A stretch of 64,000 bases of DNA, taken from the sequence record PP359696.1; one strand, 5' to 3'. Positions 2,848 through 59,071 of this stretch are shown here, in pieces. Under the pieces are notes generated by a model that did not search any database, had not been told where the DNA came from, and saw only the letters and a list, made by a program, of their open reading frames with translations. This DNA comes from Escherichia phage Ge15. Position 1 is the stretch's first letter. Each line of letters opens with the position of its first letter. Both the position numbers and the translations under genes were made by a program.

Positions 2848-3560
2848 ATGAAACTAATCTTTTTAAGTGGTGTAAAGCGTAGTGGAAAAGATACTACTGC
2901 AGATTTTATTATGAATAATTATTCTGCAGTTAAATATCAACTTGCTGGTCCTATTAAGGATGCATTGGCTTATGCATGGGGTGTATTTGCAGCAAACACT
3001 GACTATCCTTGTTTAACTCGTAAAGAGTTTGAAGGAATTGACTATGATCGTGAAACTAATTTAAATCTGACTAAATTAGAAGTAATTACGATTATGGAAC
3101 AAGCATTTTGCTATCTTAATAGTAAAAGCCCAATTAAAGGTGTGTTTGTTTTTGATGACGCAGTTAATTTCGTAGCATTTAACAAGATTGCTGACGTTAT
3201 AAATAATATTGAAGATCAATGGTCAGTCCGTCGTCTGATGCAAGCCCTAGGTACGGATTTGATTGTTAATAACTTCGACCGCATGTATTGGGTAAAATTA
3301 TTTGCTTTAGATTATCTTGATAAATTTAACTCAGGTTATGATTATTATATCGTTCCTGATACTCGTCAAGATCATGAAATGGATGCGGCTAGGGCGATGG
3401 GTGCTACAGTAATTCATGTAGTTCGTCCTGGTCAAAAATCCAATGATACACATATTACAGAAGCTGGATTGCCAATTCATGATGGCGATTTAGTAATTAC
3501 AAACGATGGTTCTCTTGAAGAACTTTTTTCTAAAATTAAAAATACACTAAAGGTACTATA

Positions 3561-3561
<1 letters not shown>
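2848..3561 (+). CDS. 1: deoxynucleoside monophosphate kinase gp1
   Basis: 237-aa ORF with P-loop GVKRSGKDT; sequence recognised as T4 dNMP kinase. Confidence 0.9.
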
Positions 3562-4258
<697 letters not shown>

Positions 4259-4591: not shown

Positions 4592-4645
4592 CACAAAGTT
4601 GTTTACACAGGGTTTTAGTAGTGATACTATTACTCTATCAAAACA
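4592..4645 (+). promoter_or_regulatory. early promoter / stem-loop cassette (second copy)
   Basis: Near-identical TTCACAAAGTTGTTTACA ... GTGATACTATTAC core as at 4262. Confidence 0.55.
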
Positions 4646-4664
4646 AAACCAAATGGAAATCAAA

Positions 4665-4898
4665 ATGAAAACTTTCAAAGAGTTTATCGCTGAATCTTCT
4701 GATGTAAAAGTTGAGTTTATTTACACCGGCAAGAAAGATAAAATGGGTGAAATGCCTCATGGAGTTCTTCGTGATGCATTAGATAATTTCGGTCAACTCG
4801 CCGCAGAAGATTACGGTGATAAAATTGTTGTTACTGGTCCTGCTGCAGTTATTGAAAAATGGGCAGCAGAAAATAAATCAATTTTTCGTAAAAAATAA
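4665..4898 (+). CDS. internal-protein-like small protein with capsid targeting sequence
   Basis: 77-aa ORF from ATG 4665, N-terminus MKTFKEFIAE matches the T4 internal-protein CTS consensus. Confidence 0.6.
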   Translation: MKTFKEFIAESSDVKVEFIYTGKKDKMGEMPHGVLRDALDNFGQLAAEDYGDKIVVTGPAAVIEKWAAENKSIFRKK

Positions 4899-4940
4899 GT
4901 TTACTTTTAGATAGGGTAGTGATACTATTACCCTATCAAC
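4899..4940 (+). promoter_or_regulatory. early promoter / stem-loop cassette (third copy)
   Basis: GTTTAC then GATAGGGTA-GTGATACTAT-TACCCTATC inverted repeat around the -10. Confidence 0.55.
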
Positions 4941-4956
4941 TACCGAGGAGAATAAA

Positions 4957-5142
4957 ATGAAACGTTGTGAATTAATTCGAAATGTTGCTATTGCAATTTC
5001 TGCTTCCGCTTTTAGTTTTTCAATGTTTGTTGGATTTATATGCGGATTATTGACTACAGCAGAAAATGTGTTTTCACTTGTAGTAGCATTTTTAATTGGT
5101 TTAATTGCTATCGTTATGGATAAAATTTCTAAAGGTGAATAG
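4957..5142 (+). CDS. small membrane protein, unknown function
   Basis: 61-aa ORF with GAGGAG RBS, two hydrophobic helices. Confidence 0.5.
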   Translation: MKRCELIRNVAIAISASAFSFSMFVGFICGLLTTAENVFSLVVAFLIGLIAIVMDKISKGE

Positions 5143-5911: not shown

Positions 5912-5984
5912 TGGGAATTAGCCAAGTTGGTAAGGCACTGGATTTTGATTCCAGGATGCAAAGGTTCGAGTCCTTTATTCCCAG
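5912..5984 (+). tRNA. tRNA-Gln (anticodon UUG)
   Basis: Cloverleaf by eye: acceptor TGGGAAT/ATTCCCA, anticodon loop TTTTGAT, T-arm GGTTCGAGTCC; abuts tRNA-Leu as a dimeric precursor. Confidence 0.85.
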
Positions 5985-5985
5985 C

Positions 5986-6073
5986 GCGAGAATGGTCAAA
6001 TTGGTAAAGGCACAGCACTTAAAATGCTGCGGAATTATTTCCTTGTGGGTTCGAGTCCCACTTCTCGCACCAA
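5986..6073 (+). tRNA. tRNA-Leu (anticodon UAA)
   Basis: Acceptor GCGAGAA/TTCTCGC, anticodon loop CTTAAAA, long variable arm, encoded CCA. Confidence 0.85.
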
Positions 6074-6077
6074 ATTT

Positions 6078-6151
<74 letters not shown>

Positions 6152-6155
6152 ATTT

Positions 6156-6806
6156 ATGACTCGTCGTGAGACGCTCAGTTCTTTATTAGGGACTGATATG
6201 CATTTTTATCTTTATAAAATAACAAATAAAATTAATAATAAAATTTATATTGGTGTGCATTCTACCGAAAATTTAGATGATGGATATATGGGTTCTGGTA
6301 AATTATTAAAAAGAGCCCAAGATAAATATGGTATAGAAAATTTTTCTAAAGAAATATTAGAGTATTTTGATGATAAAGAATCTATGCTTGAAGCCGAGAA
6401 AAATATTGTCACAGAAGAGTTTTTAAATAGACCAGATGTGTATAATTTAAAACTTGGAGGTGAAGGTGGATGGGACCATATAAATAATTATCCTATGACA
6501 GATCAGCAACGCGAATTAATTTCATTGGGTGTTAAAAAGGCACATTCTAACGGAAAATTAAAAGGATGGTCTTCAAATGGATTAATGAAGAATGGCTTTA
6601 CTGGTAAAACTCATTCTCAAGAAGCTAAACGTAAAATAGCAAAAGCAAACGAAGCAAAAGTTTCTGCGGATGAAAGAAAAAGAAGAATAGAAATTTCTAA
6701 ATTATATGATTTTTCTAAGCGTGGTGAATTATCTAAATATGCTAAGCATATTGGCGTAAGTCATACTCAAGCAAAAAGAATTCTAAATCAAATTAACAAT
6801 ATATAA
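6156..6806 (+). CDS. segB: GIY-YIG homing endonuclease SegB-like
   Basis: GIY-YIG motifs (YLYKITNKINNKIYIGVH ... YMGSG) in an ORF embedded in the tRNA cluster as T4 segB; true start may be ATG 6198. Confidence 0.75.
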   Translation: MTRRETLSSLLGTDMHFYLYKITNKINNKIYIGVHSTENLDDGYMGSGKLLKRAQDKYGIENFSKEILEYFDDKESMLEAEKNIVTEEFLNRPDVYNLKLGGEGGWDHINNYPMTDQQRELISLGVKKAHSNGKLKGWSSNGLMKNGFTGKTHSQEAKRKIAKANEAKVSADERKRRIEISKLYDFSKRGELSKYAKHIGVSHTQAKRILNQINNI

Positions 6807-6812
6807 ATATTT

Positions 6813-6902
6813 GGAGGCGTGGCAGAGTGGTTTAATGCACCGGTCTTGAAAACCGGCAGTCGCTCCGGCGACTCATAGGTTCAAATCCTATCGCCTCCGC
6901 CA
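6813..6902 (+). tRNA. tRNA-Ser (anticodon UGA)
   Basis: Acceptor GGAGGCG/CGCCTCC, anticodon loop CTTGAAA, long variable arm, CCA encoded. Confidence 0.85.
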
Positions 6903-6908
6903 GTTTTT

Positions 6909-6984
6909 GCTGATTTAGCTCAGTAGGTAGAGCAACTCACTTGTAATGAGAAGGTCGGCGGTTCGATTCCGTCAATCAGCACCA
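6909..6984 (+). tRNA. tRNA-Thr (anticodon UGU)
   Basis: Acceptor GCTGATT/AATCAGC, anticodon loop CTTGTAA, T-arm GGTTCGATTCC. Confidence 0.8.
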
Positions 6985-6985
6985 A

Positions 6986-7060
6986 GGCCCTGTAGCTGGA
7001 AGGTTCAAGCAAGCGACTCATAATCGCCAGATGGTGGTTCAATTCCACCCAGGGCCACCA
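6986..7060 (+). tRNA. tRNA with CAU anticodon (Ile, lysidine-type as in T4, or Met)
   Basis: Acceptor GGCCCTG/CAGGGCC, anticodon loop CTCATAA, T-arm GGTGGTTCAATTCCACC. Confidence 0.75.
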
Positions 7061-7066
7061 AATTAA

Positions 7067-7153
7067 GGGGAGTTATCCCGTAGAGGTAGCGGTGTGGACT
7101 GTAAATTCATTGTCATTGCGACTCGGGTGGTTCGACTCCACCACTCCCCACCA
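7067..7153 (+). tRNA. tRNA-Tyr (anticodon GUA)
   Basis: Acceptor GGGGAGT/ACTCCCC, anticodon loop CTGTAAA, long variable arm resembling E. coli tRNA-Tyr, T-arm GGTGGTTCGACTCCACC, CCA. Confidence 0.7.
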
Positions 7154-7157
7154 ATTT

Positions 7158-7232
7158 GGATGTGTAGCTCAATGGCAGAGCGATCGCCTGTTAAGCGATT
7201 GGTTATAGGTTCGAATCCTATCACGTCCGCCA
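7158..7232 (+). tRNA. tRNA-Asn (anticodon GUU)
   Basis: Acceptor GGATGTG/CACGTCC, anticodon stem ATCGC/GCGAT with loop CTGTTAA, T-arm GGTTCGAATCC. Confidence 0.8.
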
Positions 7233-7346
7233 AATTTGTGACAACTGTCACATTAATATCTACTTGACGCGATTATAGGGGTTGAACTGATCACTCTTCT
7301 CTTAATTTCGTGTGAAGACATCTTGATTGTTGGAGTAGGTATTAAT

Positions 7347-7422
7347 GTGGCCGTAGTTCAGTTGGTAGAACTCGAGATTGTGATTCTCGTAGTCATGGGT
7401 TCGACTCCCATCGGTCACCCCA
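7347..7422 (+). tRNA. tRNA-His (anticodon GUG)
   Basis: Extra 5' G, anticodon stem CGAGA/TCTCG with loop TTGTGAT, T-arm GGTTCGACTCC, CCA. Confidence 0.8.
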
Positions 7423-7426
7423 ATTA

Positions 7427-7502
7427 CGGGGCATAGCTCAGAAGGAAGAGCAAGGACCTTCTAAGTCCTAGGTCGTAGGTTCGATCCCTACTGCCTCGAC
7501 CA
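7427..7502 (+). tRNA. tRNA-Arg (anticodon UCU)
   Basis: Acceptor CGGGGCA/TGCCTCG, anticodon stem AGGAC/GTCCT with loop CTTCTAA, CCA. Confidence 0.85.
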
Positions 7503-7520: not shown

Positions 7521-7871
7521 ATGAAAGGTAATGTTTATTTAGTAGTTCATGATTTAACATTTTACTTCAATGAATATGAAAAACATATCTCATTTCGTGA
7601 AATTAATTTACTTTATCAACATGCGGATTATATTTATATTCAAAACGAATTTGGTCATTGGCAATTTCTCAAAAATCGTTCATTTGGCTTAGATGGTTAC
7701 GAATACTTTGAACGTAAAGACCTTTTAGATAAAATTCCGTTATCTACGCAATATCAAAATCACAAATCTTTATATAAATGCCGTCCAATTCGAAATGTTG
7801 AATCCGCGTATGAAGCAATTGATTTATGGCGTGAACGCCGTAAACAGATTGATGCTTTAAAAGAATATTAA
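7521..7871 (+). CDS. hypothetical protein
   Basis: 116-aa ORF with GAGGA RBS immediately after tRNA-Arg. Confidence 0.55.
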   Translation: MKGNVYLVVHDLTFYFNEYEKHISFREINLLYQHADYIYIQNEFGHWQFLKNRSFGLDGYEYFERKDLLDKIPLSTQYQNHKSLYKCRPIRNVESAYEAIDLWRERRKQIDALKEY

Positions 7872-7874
7872 GAA

Positions 7875-8180
7875 ACCGGGTCGCTACCGGTAAGTCGTCG
7901 GACTGATGTTCCCTGAGTAAGGAATTGCGTTAATAATCTTTGCGTTTATTGATGCCCTCTTACATCACAGCAGAAACGGCGCACCGAATTATCGATTCGA
8001 GGAAATATCTTTGCCGTAAGCCGAGTAGCGTTTTTGACGGAACGTTCGGATATGGTCGAGATATGGCCTTTTAAAAATATTGAGTAGCGTCAACTGCTTA
8101 ATAACCGGGTTCGAATCCCGGCGTTTCGTACAAACACTTGCCTTAGCAGGTGGAACCCCGACAAGGTTGCCGCAAGGCTT
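7875..8180 (+). ncRNA. structured non-coding region, candidate stable small RNA(s) (possibly T4 rnaC/rnaD analogues)
   Basis: About 300 nt with no plausible ORF, GC-rich local hairpins and a tRNA-like T-arm CCGGGTTCGAATCCCGG; ends at a terminator. Confidence 0.25.
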
Positions 8181-8181
8181 A

Positions 8182-8208
8182 GCCCCAGCCGAAAGGTTGG
8201 GGCTTTTT
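8182..8208 (+). terminator. rho-independent terminator
   Basis: Hairpin GCCCCAGCC-GAAA-GGTTGGGGC followed by TTTTT. Confidence 0.7.
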
Positions 8209-8210
8209 AG

Positions 8211-8218
8211 TATAAATA
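8211..8218 (+). promoter_or_regulatory. late promoter TATAAATA
   Basis: Exact TATAAATA about 37 nt upstream of ATG 8255. Confidence 0.6.
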
Positions 8219-8254
8219 AGTATATTAAAACCACGAATTAAAACAGGAAATAAG

Positions 8255-8728
8255 ATGAAATCATATGCTCAATTTTTAAATGAAGCGGTGTTAAATGAAG
8301 CATCTAGCACCGAAATTCAAGCTGTCGCAAAAGCTGCCATTGCCGCGGGTAAATATTCCTATAAAGATGCTTCCGATGAATCACGATTCCAATTTGCTCG
8401 TGATATGAAAGCCGAAGGATTTACAGGGAATGCAGTTAGTATGGCTTGGAAAAGTTTAGTTGCTACTGGAGCTGCTTTTGCAAAGGCTTCAGGTAAACCT
8501 GCTCCTAAGGCTGACCCTAAAGCAGCACAAGAGAAAAATATTGTTAAAGGAATTATCTCCAAATATGAAGCTATCCTTAAAGAGCTTTTAGTAATCAAAA
8601 CTGAAGGCCAAAAACTAGCTCGTGCTTATAGTTTCAAAGATAACCCACATGCTCACTCTCTTGAGTATGTTGAAGACATTCAAAAAATTATTAAAGACCG
8701 CATTTGGTCTGCTAAACAAATCAAATAA
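8255..8728 (+). CDS. internal-protein-like late protein with capsid targeting sequence
   Basis: 157-aa ORF, N-terminus MKSYAQFLNEAVLNEA resembles the internal-protein CTS with L-x-E cleavage sites; late promoter upstream; terminators on both sides. Confidence 0.6.
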   Translation: MKSYAQFLNEAVLNEASSTEIQAVAKAAIAAGKYSYKDASDESRFQFARDMKAEGFTGNAVSMAWKSLVATGAAFAKASGKPAPKADPKAAQEKNIVKGIISKYEAILKELLVIKTEGQKLARAYSFKDNPHAHSLEYVEDIQKIIKDRIWSAKQIK

Positions 8729-8735
8729 CATTCTT

Positions 8736-8763
8736 AGCCCTAGCCGAAAGGTTGGGGCTTTTT
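8736..8763 (+). terminator. rho-independent terminator
   Basis: Hairpin AGCCCTAGCC-GAAA-GGTTGGGGCT then TTTTT; near-copy of the 8182 terminator. Confidence 0.7.
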
Positions 8764-8898
8764 GGTATCTAGGCCTTTCCAGGCCTCTCTAGACATCATT
8801 TAGTTTCTACCCTTTATAATATATTATCCTATCCTTTGATTTCCCCTCCCTGCCCTAGAATTCCCCAAAACTTTTTAAAAATTTTTTTTCACAAAACG

Positions 8899-8928
8899 GT
8901 TTACATCCTTGTCCTTCCATGGTACTAT
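8899..8928 (+). promoter_or_regulatory. early promoter (GTTTAC -35, TGGTACTAT -10)
   Basis: T4 early-promoter-like element; core TGGTACTATACAACTATCAAC recurs at 20759, 24331, 26032 and 51373. Confidence 0.55.
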
Positions 8929-13597: not shown

Positions 13598-13915
13598 ATG
13601 AAAACGTATAAAGAATTTATTGCAGAATCTGCCGCAGGACAACGTGTAGAAGGCGGTTATATTTGGATTGAAGAAGTTGAGCCACCTAGTCGTACTTCTA
13701 CTGGTAAATGGAAAATTACTGTCGATGGTCCTGGCGGAAAACGCAGAACTTTAAAAGAAATTAATGGATATTATAGTGAAGCTCTTTCAGACGCGGGCAC
13801 TTATATGATGCAAATTATGATTAAAAATCCAGAAAATCGTTTTGCAGCTAGAGTTTTCCGCCGCATTGGAAATAAACTTTACGATGCATATTCTAAAAAT
13901 TTTCCTAAAGCATAA
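13598..13915 (+). CDS. internal protein (IPII-like) with capsid targeting sequence
   Basis: 105-aa ORF with N-terminus MKTYKEFIAE, the canonical T4 CTS. Confidence 0.7.
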   Translation: MKTYKEFIAESAAGQRVEGGYIWIEEVEPPSRTSTGKWKITVDGPGGKRRTLKEINGYYSEALSDAGTYMMQIMIKNPENRFAARVFRRIGNKLYDAYSKNFPKA

Positions 13916-13931
13916 AAATTAAAGGAAACAT

Positions 13932-14405
13932 ATGAAAACATATCAAGAATTTATTACTGAAGCAGCTATTAATTCTCAAATTATTGCTGAATCTTTTACT
14001 GATCTTTTGAAATTTAAAAAAGGTCAAAAAATCACTGCTGTATTGGATGATGGTACAGAAGTTGAGATGGATGTACAGGGATATAATTATGCAGTAGATG
14101 GAAAACTGTATAATAAATCTCATGCTAAATTTGATTCATTTGACGACTTTGTTAATACAGTTGAAGATGAAAAAACTCGTAGATCCATTGCAACTGGTGA
14201 TGCTAAGGTTCTTATGGCACACGGCCATGAACGCATTCGCGCTAAGCAGAATAAAATGGGCGAAGATAATTTCGCATTAGTTGGTTATCAATCTGGTAAA
14301 CAAACTTATGGTTATCAGCGTACTGCTACCATGTATAACAAAAATGGTAAAATCGCTTTCGTGAATAGTAAAGGTTCTGTTCAGTACGTTAAATCGTTCA
14401 AATAA
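13932..14405 (+). CDS. internal protein (IPIII-like) with capsid targeting sequence
   Basis: 157-aa ORF with N-terminus MKTYQEFITE; shares upstream AAAGGAAACATATG element with the preceding gene. Confidence 0.7.
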   Translation: MKTYQEFITEAAINSQIIAESFTDLLKFKKGQKITAVLDDGTEVEMDVQGYNYAVDGKLYNKSHAKFDSFDDFVNTVEDEKTRRSIATGDAKVLMAHGHERIRAKQNKMGEDNFALVGYQSGKQTYGYQRTATMYNKNGKIAFVNSKGSVQYVKSFK

Positions 14406-58905: not shown

Positions 58906-58909
58906 TATG
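58861..58909 (+). repeat. 49-bp direct repeat copy 2
   Basis: Second copy of the junction repeat, 358 bp downstream of the first. Confidence 0.85.
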
Positions 58910-59071
58910 AAAACATATAAAGAATTTATTAAAGAAGATATGGTAGCTGGAGATTCAGGTGGTAATCCTGAAAATATCTCTACTGGAACAACGTCAGGTG
59001 CTGTAGTAAATAAAGGTCCTGAACAGATTCCTAAAAAGAAAAAAGAGGAATCTAAAGAAAAAGAAGAGTAA
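58907..59071 (+). CDS. mini-protein with capsid-targeting-like N-terminus
   Basis: 54-aa ORF (below track cutoff), MKTYKEFIKEDMVAG..., Lys/Glu-rich tail, immediately upstream of primase. Confidence 0.45.
   Translation: MKTYKEFIKEDMVAGDSGGNPENISTGTTSGAVVNKGPEQIPKKKKEESKEKEE

What the first reader, a model, noticed from the sequence alone, without database searches (positions are those of the whole stretch)
8182..8763. Terminator-insulated late gene encoding a CTS-bearing protein
ORF 8255-8728 has a late promoter, an N-terminus resembling the capsid targeting sequence cleaved by the prohead protease (MKSYAQFLNE/AVLNE), and near-identical terminators on both sides. That is a self-contained cassette for a protein packaged in the head and injected with the DNA, a delivery route T4 uses for anti-restriction protein IPI.
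Basis: partly seen in the sequence, partly recalled or inferred. Interest (0 to 1): 0.55.

Follow-up and report, generated by a model that had tools for sequence, protein, structure and literature searches.

The report
Unannotated injected head protein gene cassette
A T4-like phage carries a small late gene, missing from T4 itself, whose product has the address tag that T4 uses to load proteins into the head and inject them with the DNA, so it is probably one more member of the known, variable set of injected anti-defence proteins, at a genome site not yet listed for them.

Summary
ORF 8255-8728 (157 aa) lies in a Tequatrovirus genome between the tRNA/rnaC cluster and gene e.8. It is preceded by a TATAAATA late-promoter motif (8211-8218). 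It is flanked by two strong terminator hairpins that form a 36-nt direct repeat, 94% identical and 555 bp apart. T4, T2 and PST lack exactly this segment and keep a single terminator.

The N-terminus MKSYAQFLNE keeps the four residues mapped as functional in the T4 IPIII capsid targeting sequence: Y4 and F7 for targeting, L8 and E10 for gp21 cleavage. All full-length relatives keep this pattern, across five Tevenvirinae genera. Some phages carry a second tag-bearing gene of the same PHROG family in tandem. dN/dS of about 0.08 shows a real gene.

The mature protein (about 15.5-16 kDa, pI 9.5, all-helical) has no detectable relative outside T4-like phages and no informative fold match. It is named 'hypothetical' in all but one of the named database entries I read.

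Best reading: an unrecognised internal (injected) protein at a third Ip locus, plausibly an inhibitor of a host type IV restriction enzyme, like Ip1-3. Packaging, injection and target are inferred, not shown. It is a new member of a known kind, of moderate interest.

The parts
8178..8213 (+). Direct-repeat copy 1. It contains the terminator hairpin 8181-8204 with its U tract. This is the terminator of the upstream tRNA/rnaD/rnaC unit, and T4 has it as well.
8211..8218 (+). TATAAATA, a T4-type late-promoter motif, 36 nt upstream of the ATG.
   Evidence: It is conserved in other carriers and annotated as a promoter in phage Lutter.
8245..8249 (+). Shine-Dalgarno-like AGGAA.
   Evidence: read directly from the sequence
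8255..8728 (+). ORF of 157 aa including the stop codon. It belongs to PHROG 2280 and is a candidate internal (injected) head protein.
8255..8284 (+). Codons 1-10, MKSYAQFLNE: a capsid-targeting-sequence-like propeptide ending in the gp21 motif L-N-E.
   Evidence: PMC9026906
8285..8299 (+). Codons 11-15, AVLNE: a second L-N-E site created by a 5-residue duplication. The duplication is absent from some alleles (LH2, ZCEC15, PhAPEC2).
8300..8479 (+). Codons 16-75: a helical N-terminal domain (pLDDT 83-90). It is the part conserved across genera (motif GKYSYKD..E.RF.F.RDMKAEGF...AWKS).
8480..8524 (+). Codons 76-90: a Lys/Ala/Pro-rich linker of low model confidence.
8525..8725 (+). Codons 91-157: a C-terminal antiparallel helical hairpin. 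It is nearly invariant between Tequatrovirus and Mosigvirus (dN/dS 0.03) and is replaced by a different C-terminal sequence in the Yersinia and Klebsiella phages. It contains one further L-K-E at residues 108-110.
8733..8768 (+). Direct-repeat copy 2. It contains the terminator hairpin 8736-8759 with its U tract and ends the cassette ahead of the early promoter of e.8 (8900-8928).

Best explanation
ORF 8255-8728 encodes a previously unrecognised 'internal protein' of a T4-like phage.

Proposed sequence of events. Only the sequence features are shown; each step below is inferred.
1. Late in infection the gene is transcribed on its own from the TATAAATA promoter. The transcript ends at the downstream hairpin. 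The upstream hairpin stops read-through from the tRNA/rnaC unit.
2. The N-terminal decapeptide MKSYAQFLNE directs the protein into the prohead scaffolding core.
3. The prohead protease gp21 cuts after Glu10 and/or Glu15 (L-N-E/A, twice). This releases a basic, all-helical protein of about 15.5-16 kDa that stays in the DNA-filled head.
4. The protein is injected with the DNA into the next host.
5. There it most likely neutralises a host defence that acts on incoming glucosyl-hmC DNA, most plausibly a GmrSD-type type IV restriction enzyme, as T4 Ip1, Ip2 and Ip3 each do.

The gene sits at a third Ip locus, between rnaC and e.8. In different phages this site holds 0, 1 or 2 tag-bearing genes of one superfamily (PHROG 2280). 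Each cassette is bounded by copies of the same terminator. Homologous recombination between those copies explains the precise presence/absence pattern, as in the PeSL model.
For: Targeting tag.
- Y4, F7, L8 and E10 match the residues mapped in IPIII. gp21 cleaves after L/I-X-E (PMC9026906).
- The pattern is about 60-fold over chance in the window. Three of the other four ORF-start hits lie at the known ip loci, two of them in families named 'internal virion protein'.
- All full-length relatives keep M-x-x-[FY]-x-x-F-[LV]-x-E, although they diverge to about 25-40% identity elsewhere.

Third locus.
- The same position after the tRNA cluster is occupied in Tequatrovirus, Mosigvirus, Dhakavirus and Jiaodavirus. 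The Tegunavirus homologue's position was not checked.
- Tandem pairs of tag-bearing genes occur in PhAPEC2 and fHe-Yen9-01. In PhAPEC2 both genes were shown to be PHROG 2280. HZ_ZJUN4 has a 564-bp ORF at the second-gene position that I did not translate.

Real gene.
- dN/dS is 0.08 against the PhAPEC2 allele, with saturated synonymous sites.
- The protein is found in 511 phage records.

Late expression.
- TATAAATA lies directly after the terminator, and this junction is conserved.

Accessory status.
- The gene is absent from T4, T2 and PST, which have a single terminator at the junction.
- Truncated alleles exist.

Properties.
- The mature pI of 9.5 is like that of the basic IPII and IPIII.

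Precedent.
- Ip1, Ip2 and Ip3 each block a distinct GmrSD enzyme and share only the leader sequence (PMC12373910).
- One database entry for the Klebsiella homologue is already named 'Internal head protein'.
Against: - There is no direct evidence that the protein is in virions, is cleaved or is injected. I found no proteomic record.
- A tag-like N-terminus is not proof of packaging. The conserved small gene 61.1 homologue (58907-59071) also starts MKTYKEFIKE and is not known to me as a head protein.
- The TATAAATA motif is not enriched in the window overall. In the Mosigvirus and Dhakavirus alleles it is a one-mismatch variant, AATAAATA.
- The mature protein has no sequence or fold similarity to IPI*, Ip2 or Ip3. 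The anti-GmrSD role is therefore analogy only.
- Silas et al. tested ip4-10 against active GmrSD systems and found no reproducible new inhibition. Being an Ip does not guarantee a detectable GmrSD target.
Confidence: 0.65

Rival explanations
1. The protein is packaged and processed as proposed, but its role is structural or physical inside the head. It might neutralise DNA charge, condense DNA or help core assembly, as was long assumed for the basic IPII and IPIII. It would have no host-defence target.
For: - The mature pI is 9.5, and the Lys/Ala/Pro-rich linker KASGKPAPKADPKAAQEK resembles DNA-binding basic tails.
- IPIII mutants show head-assembly aberrations (PMC9026906).
- The C-terminal hairpin is extremely conserved (dN/dS 0.03). 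That is unusual for an arms-race interface.
Against: - T4, T2 and PST do without the gene, and truncated alleles circulate. Any structural role is therefore dispensable.
- All three T4 Ips, once thought structural, turned out to be specific GmrSD inhibitors (PMC12373910).
Confidence: 0.2
2. The protein is a late cytoplasmic protein that is not packaged. Its N-terminus resembles the targeting sequence only because 5' gene ends are shared or exchanged among small T-even accessory genes by recombination.
For: - The gene 61.1 homologue carries a similar N-terminus without being a recognised head protein.
- Targeting sequences and their flanks are plausible recombination substrates (my inference; the primary paper, Repoila 1994, could not be read).
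Against: - The functional positions 4, 7, 8 and 10 are kept across five genera, while positions 2, 3, 5, 6 and 9 and the underlying codons vary. That indicates selection on the peptide rather than recent DNA exchange.
- The cleavage site is duplicated in this allele.
- The late promoter fits the timing of prohead assembly.
Confidence: 0.12
3. The ORF is a chance reading frame in a spacer between two terminators and has no protein product.
For: The only support is negative. No family annotation exists, and nearly every database entry calls it hypothetical.
Against: - dN/dS is 0.08 with saturated synonymous sites.
- Full-length conservation is seen in hundreds of phage genomes and five genera.
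- A Shine-Dalgarno sequence and a promoter are present.
- The structure model is confidently helical.
Confidence: 0.02

Closest known systems
[quoted passage not shown]
   Same: - An N-terminal decapeptide of the same pattern ending in L/I-X-E.
- Small size and a basic mature protein.
- A non-essential gene that is variably present.
- Late-promoter-driven expression.
- The mature parts are unrelated between members.
   Different: - The gene lies between rnaC and e.8, not at the 57B-ipI or e-denV loci that the literature calls 'the two Ip loci' (PMC12373910).
- The tag differs at non-critical positions (S3, A5, Q6, L8, N9).
- The cleavage site is duplicated.
- There is no sequence or fold similarity to IPI*, Ip2 or Ip3.
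- Nothing has been shown experimentally.
PeSL cassettes (early promoter plus stem-loop) that flank ORFans in hyperplastic regions of RB49/phi1 and mediate gain and loss through mini-circles (PMC2839356, PMC4122927)
   Same: - The ORF is flanked by two near-identical copies of a stem-loop terminator.
- Relatives lack the ORF precisely and keep one copy.
- The site can hold tandem cassettes.
   Different: - The repeat here is a terminator followed by a late promoter, not by a sigma-70-type early promoter.
- The repeat is only about 36 nt long.
- Circular intermediates were not tested.
PHROG 2280 (unknown function), including the RB69ORF149c-type proteins
   Same: The protein matches the profile over its full length (E 1.6e-60). 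So does the tandem neighbour in PhAPEC2 (E 1.6e-53).
   Different: The family carries no functional annotation. The two subfamilies share little beyond the tag in pairwise comparison.

Membership tests
T-even internal (Ip) proteins | An N-terminal capsid targeting sequence with an aromatic residue at position 4 and Phe at position 7 (targeting) | tested here: met
   MKSYAQFLNE has Y4 and F7. The residue roles come from PMC9026906. Both residues are conserved in all full-length homologues.
T-even internal (Ip) proteins | A gp21 cleavage motif L/I-X-E at the end of the propeptide | tested here: met
   L8-N9-E10 is followed by Ala, and a second copy lies at L13-N14-E15. The motif is taken from PMC9026906.
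T-even internal (Ip) proteins | Expression at the time of prohead assembly (late promoter) | tested here: inconclusive
   TATAAATA is present and positionally conserved. However, this is only a motif match, it is not enriched in the window overall, and it is a one-mismatch variant in Mosigvirus and Dhakavirus. No transcript data are available.
T-even internal (Ip) proteins | Physically present in the mature head in processed form | not testable with these tools
   No virion proteomics were found for this protein.
T-even internal (Ip) proteins | Injected into the host together with the DNA | not testable with these tools
   This needs an experiment.
T-even internal (Ip) proteins | Non-essential and variably present among close relatives | tested here: met
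   The gene is absent from T4, T2 and PST. Truncated alleles exist.
T-even internal (Ip) proteins | Encoded at one of the two described Ip loci (ipI locus or ipII/ipIII locus) | tested here: not met
   The gene lies between rnaC and e.8. This is a positional convention of the literature (PMC12373910), not a mechanistic requirement.
GmrSD (type IV restriction) inhibitors Ip1/Ip2/Ip3 | Sequence or structural homology to IPI*, Ip2 or Ip3 | tested here: not met
GmrSD (type IV restriction) inhibitors Ip1/Ip2/Ip3 | Specific inhibition of a GmrSD enzyme | not testable with these tools
   This needs an experiment.
PeSL mobile regulatory cassettes | A stem-loop terminator repeated on both sides of an ORFan, with a single copy in a relative that lacks the ORF | tested here: met
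PeSL mobile regulatory cassettes | A strong sigma-70-type early promoter as part of the repeated unit | tested here: not met
   No sigma-70-like site lies in 8178-8254. The repeat carries a late-promoter motif in copy 1 only.
PeSL mobile regulatory cassettes | Excised mini-circles detectable by inverse PCR | not testable with these tools
   This needs an experiment.
PHROG 2280 | A full-length match to the family profile | tested here: met
   E 1.6e-60, residues 1-157 matched to profile positions 1-172 of 178.

The most novel reading that the evidence does not exclude
The rnaC-e.8 junction is a third, overlooked injected-protein locus of Tevenvirinae. Its PHROG 2280 proteins would be a new family of virion-delivered defence inhibitors built from two modules. 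One is an N-terminal domain conserved across genera. The other is an exchangeable C-terminal helical hairpin that sets target specificity. Their targets could be the GmrSD clades that are active against T-even phages but have no known inhibitor, or a different DNA-sensing defence.
Probability: 0.3. Interest if true: 0.65.

Novelty: new member of a known kind. Interest (0 to 1): 0.45.

Why it matters
Ip1, Ip2 and Ip3 were recently shown each to disarm a different GmrSD restriction enzyme. Several GmrSD clades that are active against T-even phages still lack a known inhibitor (PMC12373910).

By approximate counts, about two thirds of sequenced T4-like coliphages that have the rnaC region carry this tag-bearing gene family. 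The laboratory phages T4 and T2 lack it, which may be why it has escaped notice. It is therefore an obvious untested candidate.

The finding also extends the Ip repertoire to a third locus. It gives a clean natural example of cassette gain and loss between repeated terminators.

Tried and rejected
- **Family and sequence searches.** Pfam, NCBIfam and PDB-sequence searches gave nothing significant.
- **Comparison with known Ips.** BLASTP against T4 IPI/II/III, PST IpIII-VI and the window's other tag-bearing ORFs found similarity only in the tag. There was also a weak match to the tandem paralogue family.
- **Exhaustive profile search.** A search of 1.84 billion representative proteins found 13 proteins. 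Those I could trace are from T4-like phages. This gives no link to any cellular family.
- **Concerted evolution of the two terminator copies.** The window, slur03 and PhAPEC2 suggested it: each genome has its own 5'-arm variant in both copies. I dropped the idea because JK23 and Lutter have discordant copies.
- **Overall enrichment of TATAAATA as support for the promoter.** This is not significant (13 found against 10.8 expected). Only the position and its conservation count as evidence.
- **Virion proteomics for a carrier phage.** None was found. The fPS phage paper has none. The phiR1-RT, JS98, Repoila 1994 and Rifat 2008 papers are not held. The HY01 paper reports one major virion band identified as an unnamed hypothetical protein, but its identity is given only in a figure. 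This lead is unresolved.
- **Rfam.** No family covers the rnaC/rnaD homologues upstream.

Full report
**What the window is.** The region is 96-97.5% identical over 1.8 kb to many Tequatrovirus genomes such as KIT03, slur03 and wV7. The + strand corresponds to the T4 minus strand. Gene order around the finding is:
- gp57A/57B, then the ipI locus and tRNA.4-.2;
- a cluster of ten tRNA genes (5912-7502), interrupted by a GIY-YIG endonuclease ORF;
- a 116-aa ORF;
- homologues of the T4 small RNAs rnaD and rnaC, about 98% identical to T4;
- the finding;
- e.8, e.7 and the following genes.

- ORF 8255-8728 encodes 157 aa and has an AGGAA ribosome-binding site.
- TATAAATA lies at 8211-8218.
- Two intrinsic-terminator hairpins lie at 8181-8204 and 8736-8759. 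Each has 10 pairs, a GAAA loop and a U tract. Their energies are -20.6 and -18.3 kcal/mol.
- The hairpins belong to a 36-nt direct repeat, 94% identical and exactly 555 bp apart. The repeat occurs nowhere else in the window.
- TATAAATA is not enriched in the window as a whole (13 found, 10.8 expected). The motif alone is therefore weak evidence.
- The junction 'GGGGCTTTTTAGTATAAATA' is nonetheless kept in other Tequatroviruses and in Klebsiella phage KP1 of the genus Jiaodavirus, where the terminator stem itself has a different sequence.
- In Mosigvirus and Dhakavirus the motif is AATAAATA, one mismatch from the consensus.

**A precise insertion/deletion.** Aligned with T4, the flanks are nearly identical. 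T4 lacks exactly the 555 bp and has one terminator at the junction. T2 and PST look the same. The upstream hairpin is therefore the ordinary terminator of the tRNA/rnaC unit. The cassette consists of a late promoter, the ORF and a second terminator copy. This is the topology described for PeSL-flanked ORFans in RB49/phi1: two repeats in one phage and a single chimeric repeat in its relative (PMC2839356). The difference is that the promoter here is a late one, and it is not part of copy 2. The downstream neighbour e.8 has its own early-type promoter at 8900-8928.

**The N-terminus is a targeting tag by every sequence test available.**
- T4 IPII and IPIII begin MKTYQEFIAE. Mutagenesis of IPIII placed targeting mainly at residues 4 and 7 and processing at residues 8 and 10. 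gp21 cuts after L/I-X-E (PMC9026906).
- The ORF begins MKSYAQFLNE/AVLNE/ASS, so Y4, F7, L8 and E10 are all in place.
- A pattern built on these positions hits 6 times in the six-frame translation, against 0.10 expected. Five hits are ORF starts on the + strand:
  - the finding itself;
  - 4665-4898, which matches PST IpVI in length and in the first 30 residues;
  - 13598-13915;
  - 13932-14405, which likewise matches PST IpIV;
  - 58907-59071, a gene 61.1 homologue.
- PHROGs calls the IpVI, IpIV and T4 IPI/II/III families 'internal virion protein'. It calls the finding's family, PHROG 2280, 'unknown function'.
- The AVLNE pentapeptide is a polymorphic duplication of the cleavage site. LH2, ZCEC15 and PhAPEC2 have a single site. 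Cleavage at E15 would give the N-terminus that corresponds to theirs.

**Family and distribution.**
- tblastn finds the protein in 511 phage records. In 368 of them identity is 90% or higher.
- The rnaC/D segment is found in 718 records. Roughly two thirds of phages with this region therefore carry the gene. This is an approximate comparison of two searches.
- In the 5.8-billion-protein collection there are 14 clusters. In the exhaustive search of 1.84 billion representatives there are only 13 proteins. Those I could trace are from T4-like phages.
- Every full-length member starts with M-x-x-[FY]-x-x-F-[LV]-x-E, for example MLKFNEFLAE, MINFSDFLNE, MKSFSSFLNE and MKFKEFLAE. The rest of the protein diverges to 25-40% identity.
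- The gene occupies the same place after the tRNA cluster in Mosigvirus (PhAPEC2, mogra), Dhakavirus (IME341) and Jiaodavirus (KP1). A homologue also exists in Tegunavirus (fHe-Yen9-01), where I did not check the position.
- PhAPEC2 and fHe-Yen9-01 carry a second tag-bearing gene in tandem: the RB69ORF149c type, MKTYAEFLTE or MLQYNEFLKE. The PhAPEC2 copy also matches PHROG 2280 over its full length. HZ_ZJUN4 has a 564-bp ORF in the same position that I did not translate.
- The site thus holds 0, 1 or 2 such genes.
- Nearly all of the named database entries I read call the protein hypothetical. The exception is one 'Internal head protein' label on a Klebsiella phage homologue.

**It is a real gene.** Against the PhAPEC2 allele (74% identity at the protein level), dN/dS is 0.08 with saturated synonymous sites. 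The C-terminal part is nearly invariant (dN/dS 0.03), and the N-terminal domain is more variable. Truncated, frameshifted alleles exist in some phages. This fits a dispensable accessory gene.

**The protein.**
- The mature form has 147 or 142 residues, a mass of 16.0 or 15.5 kDa and a pI of 9.5-9.6.
- The AlphaFold2 model has a mean pLDDT of 72. It is all-helical, with an N-terminal domain at residues 18-71 (pLDDT 83-90), a low-confidence Lys/Ala/Pro linker at residues 76-90, and a long helical hairpin at residues 88-155.
- No Pfam, NCBIfam or PDB sequence match was found.
- There is no similarity to IPI, IPII or IPIII beyond the tag.

**Mechanism and its status.**
- Shown by sequence: the cassette anatomy, the tag, the cleavage motifs, purifying selection, the presence/absence pattern and the conserved position.
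- Inferred: late transcription, incorporation into the prohead core, gp21 cleavage, retention in the head and injection.
- Analogy only: an anti-defence role. Ip1, Ip2 and Ip3 share nothing but the leader, and each blocks one GmrSD type IV enzyme. The authors of that work expect the other proteins of 'the two Ip loci' to do the same. They found five further active GmrSD systems and no reproducible new inhibition when they tested ten ip genes, including ip4-10 (PMC12373910).
- The gene studied here lies at neither of those two loci, so it is probably not among the ip genes tested there; the tested sequences are not in the supplement text I could read.

**Caveats.** A tag-like N-terminus on the gene 61.1 homologue shows that the pattern alone does not prove packaging. 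No proteomic evidence could be found. The strongly conserved C-terminal hairpin is not what one expects of a fast arms-race interface. A structural or DNA-binding role inside the head therefore remains a serious rival.

**Verdict.** The thing is best filed as a new, unannotated member of the known class of T-even internal proteins, at a third locus. Its gain and loss are explained by recombination between duplicated terminators. Interest is moderate. The concept is established, but the family is widespread, untested, and directly relevant to the open list of GmrSD enzymes without inhibitors.

Noticed in passing
window 58907-59071 (+): This 54-aa ORF is the homologue of T4 gene 61.1. It begins MKTYKEFIKE, a near-perfect targeting-sequence pattern, followed by a low-complexity acidic/basic tail. 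It is conserved in 1228 phage records, including Aeromonas, Acinetobacter and Klebsiella T4-like phages, and falls in PHROG 1823 (unknown function). Either it is an unrecognised head-targeted peptide or the pattern is not specific to packaged proteins.
   Followed up: partly
window 13598-13915 (+): This 105-aa ORF at the ipIII/ipII locus begins MKTYKEFIAE/SAAG and has a pI of 9.6. It belongs to PHROG 3966, 'unknown function', whereas its neighbour 13932-14405 (PST IpIV type) is annotated as an internal virion protein. It is another unannotated Ip candidate.
   Followed up: partly
window 4600-4990 (+): The ipI-locus gene 4665-4898 (PST IpVI type, MKTFKEFIAE) is flanked upstream and downstream by a repeated early-promoter-like sequence, 'tagtgatactattac(t/c)ctatcaa'. 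This is a PeSL-like arrangement at the classical hyperplastic ipI locus.
   Followed up: no
window 6156-6806 (+): A GIY-YIG homing-endonuclease-like ORF of 216 aa sits inside the tRNA cluster between tRNA-Gly and tRNA-Ser. Phage slur03 has tRNA-Pro at that position, and the window has no tRNA-Pro. A TATAAATA motif overlaps the ORF's end at 6802-6809.
   Followed up: no
window 7521-7871 (+): A 116-aa ORF lies between tRNA-Arg and the rnaD homologue. T4 has tRNA-Arg directly adjacent to rnaD, so this is another insertion/deletion difference. T2, slur03 and PhAPEC2 have an ORF of similar size (345-351 bp) at the same position, annotated in PhAPEC2 as RB69ORF150c-like.
   Followed up: no
window 7880-8130 (+): The homologues of the T4 stable RNAs rnaD and rnaC (species 2 and 1) are about 98% identical to T4, but no Rfam family matches them. 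The stretch 8131-8180 between the 3' end of rnaC and the terminator folds into additional small hairpins.
   Followed up: no
L004 (PhAPEC2) 3089-3652; L005 (fHe-Yen9-01) 1922-2491; L008 (HZ_ZJUN4) from 1000: A second tag-bearing gene (RB69ORF149c type, 187-189 aa, also PHROG 2280 in PhAPEC2) lies in tandem with the homologue of the finding in PhAPEC2 and fHe-Yen9-01. In PhAPEC2 it has its own terminator. HZ_ZJUN4 has a 564-bp ORF in the same position that I did not translate. The rnaC-e.8 site is thus a multi-cassette locus in some phages.
   Followed up: partly
PMC5201272 (phage HY01): One of five major SDS-PAGE bands of HY01 virions was identified by MALDI-TOF as an unnamed 'hypothetical protein'. 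Its identity is given only in a figure that is not held. It could be an abundant internal protein such as this one.
   Followed up: no
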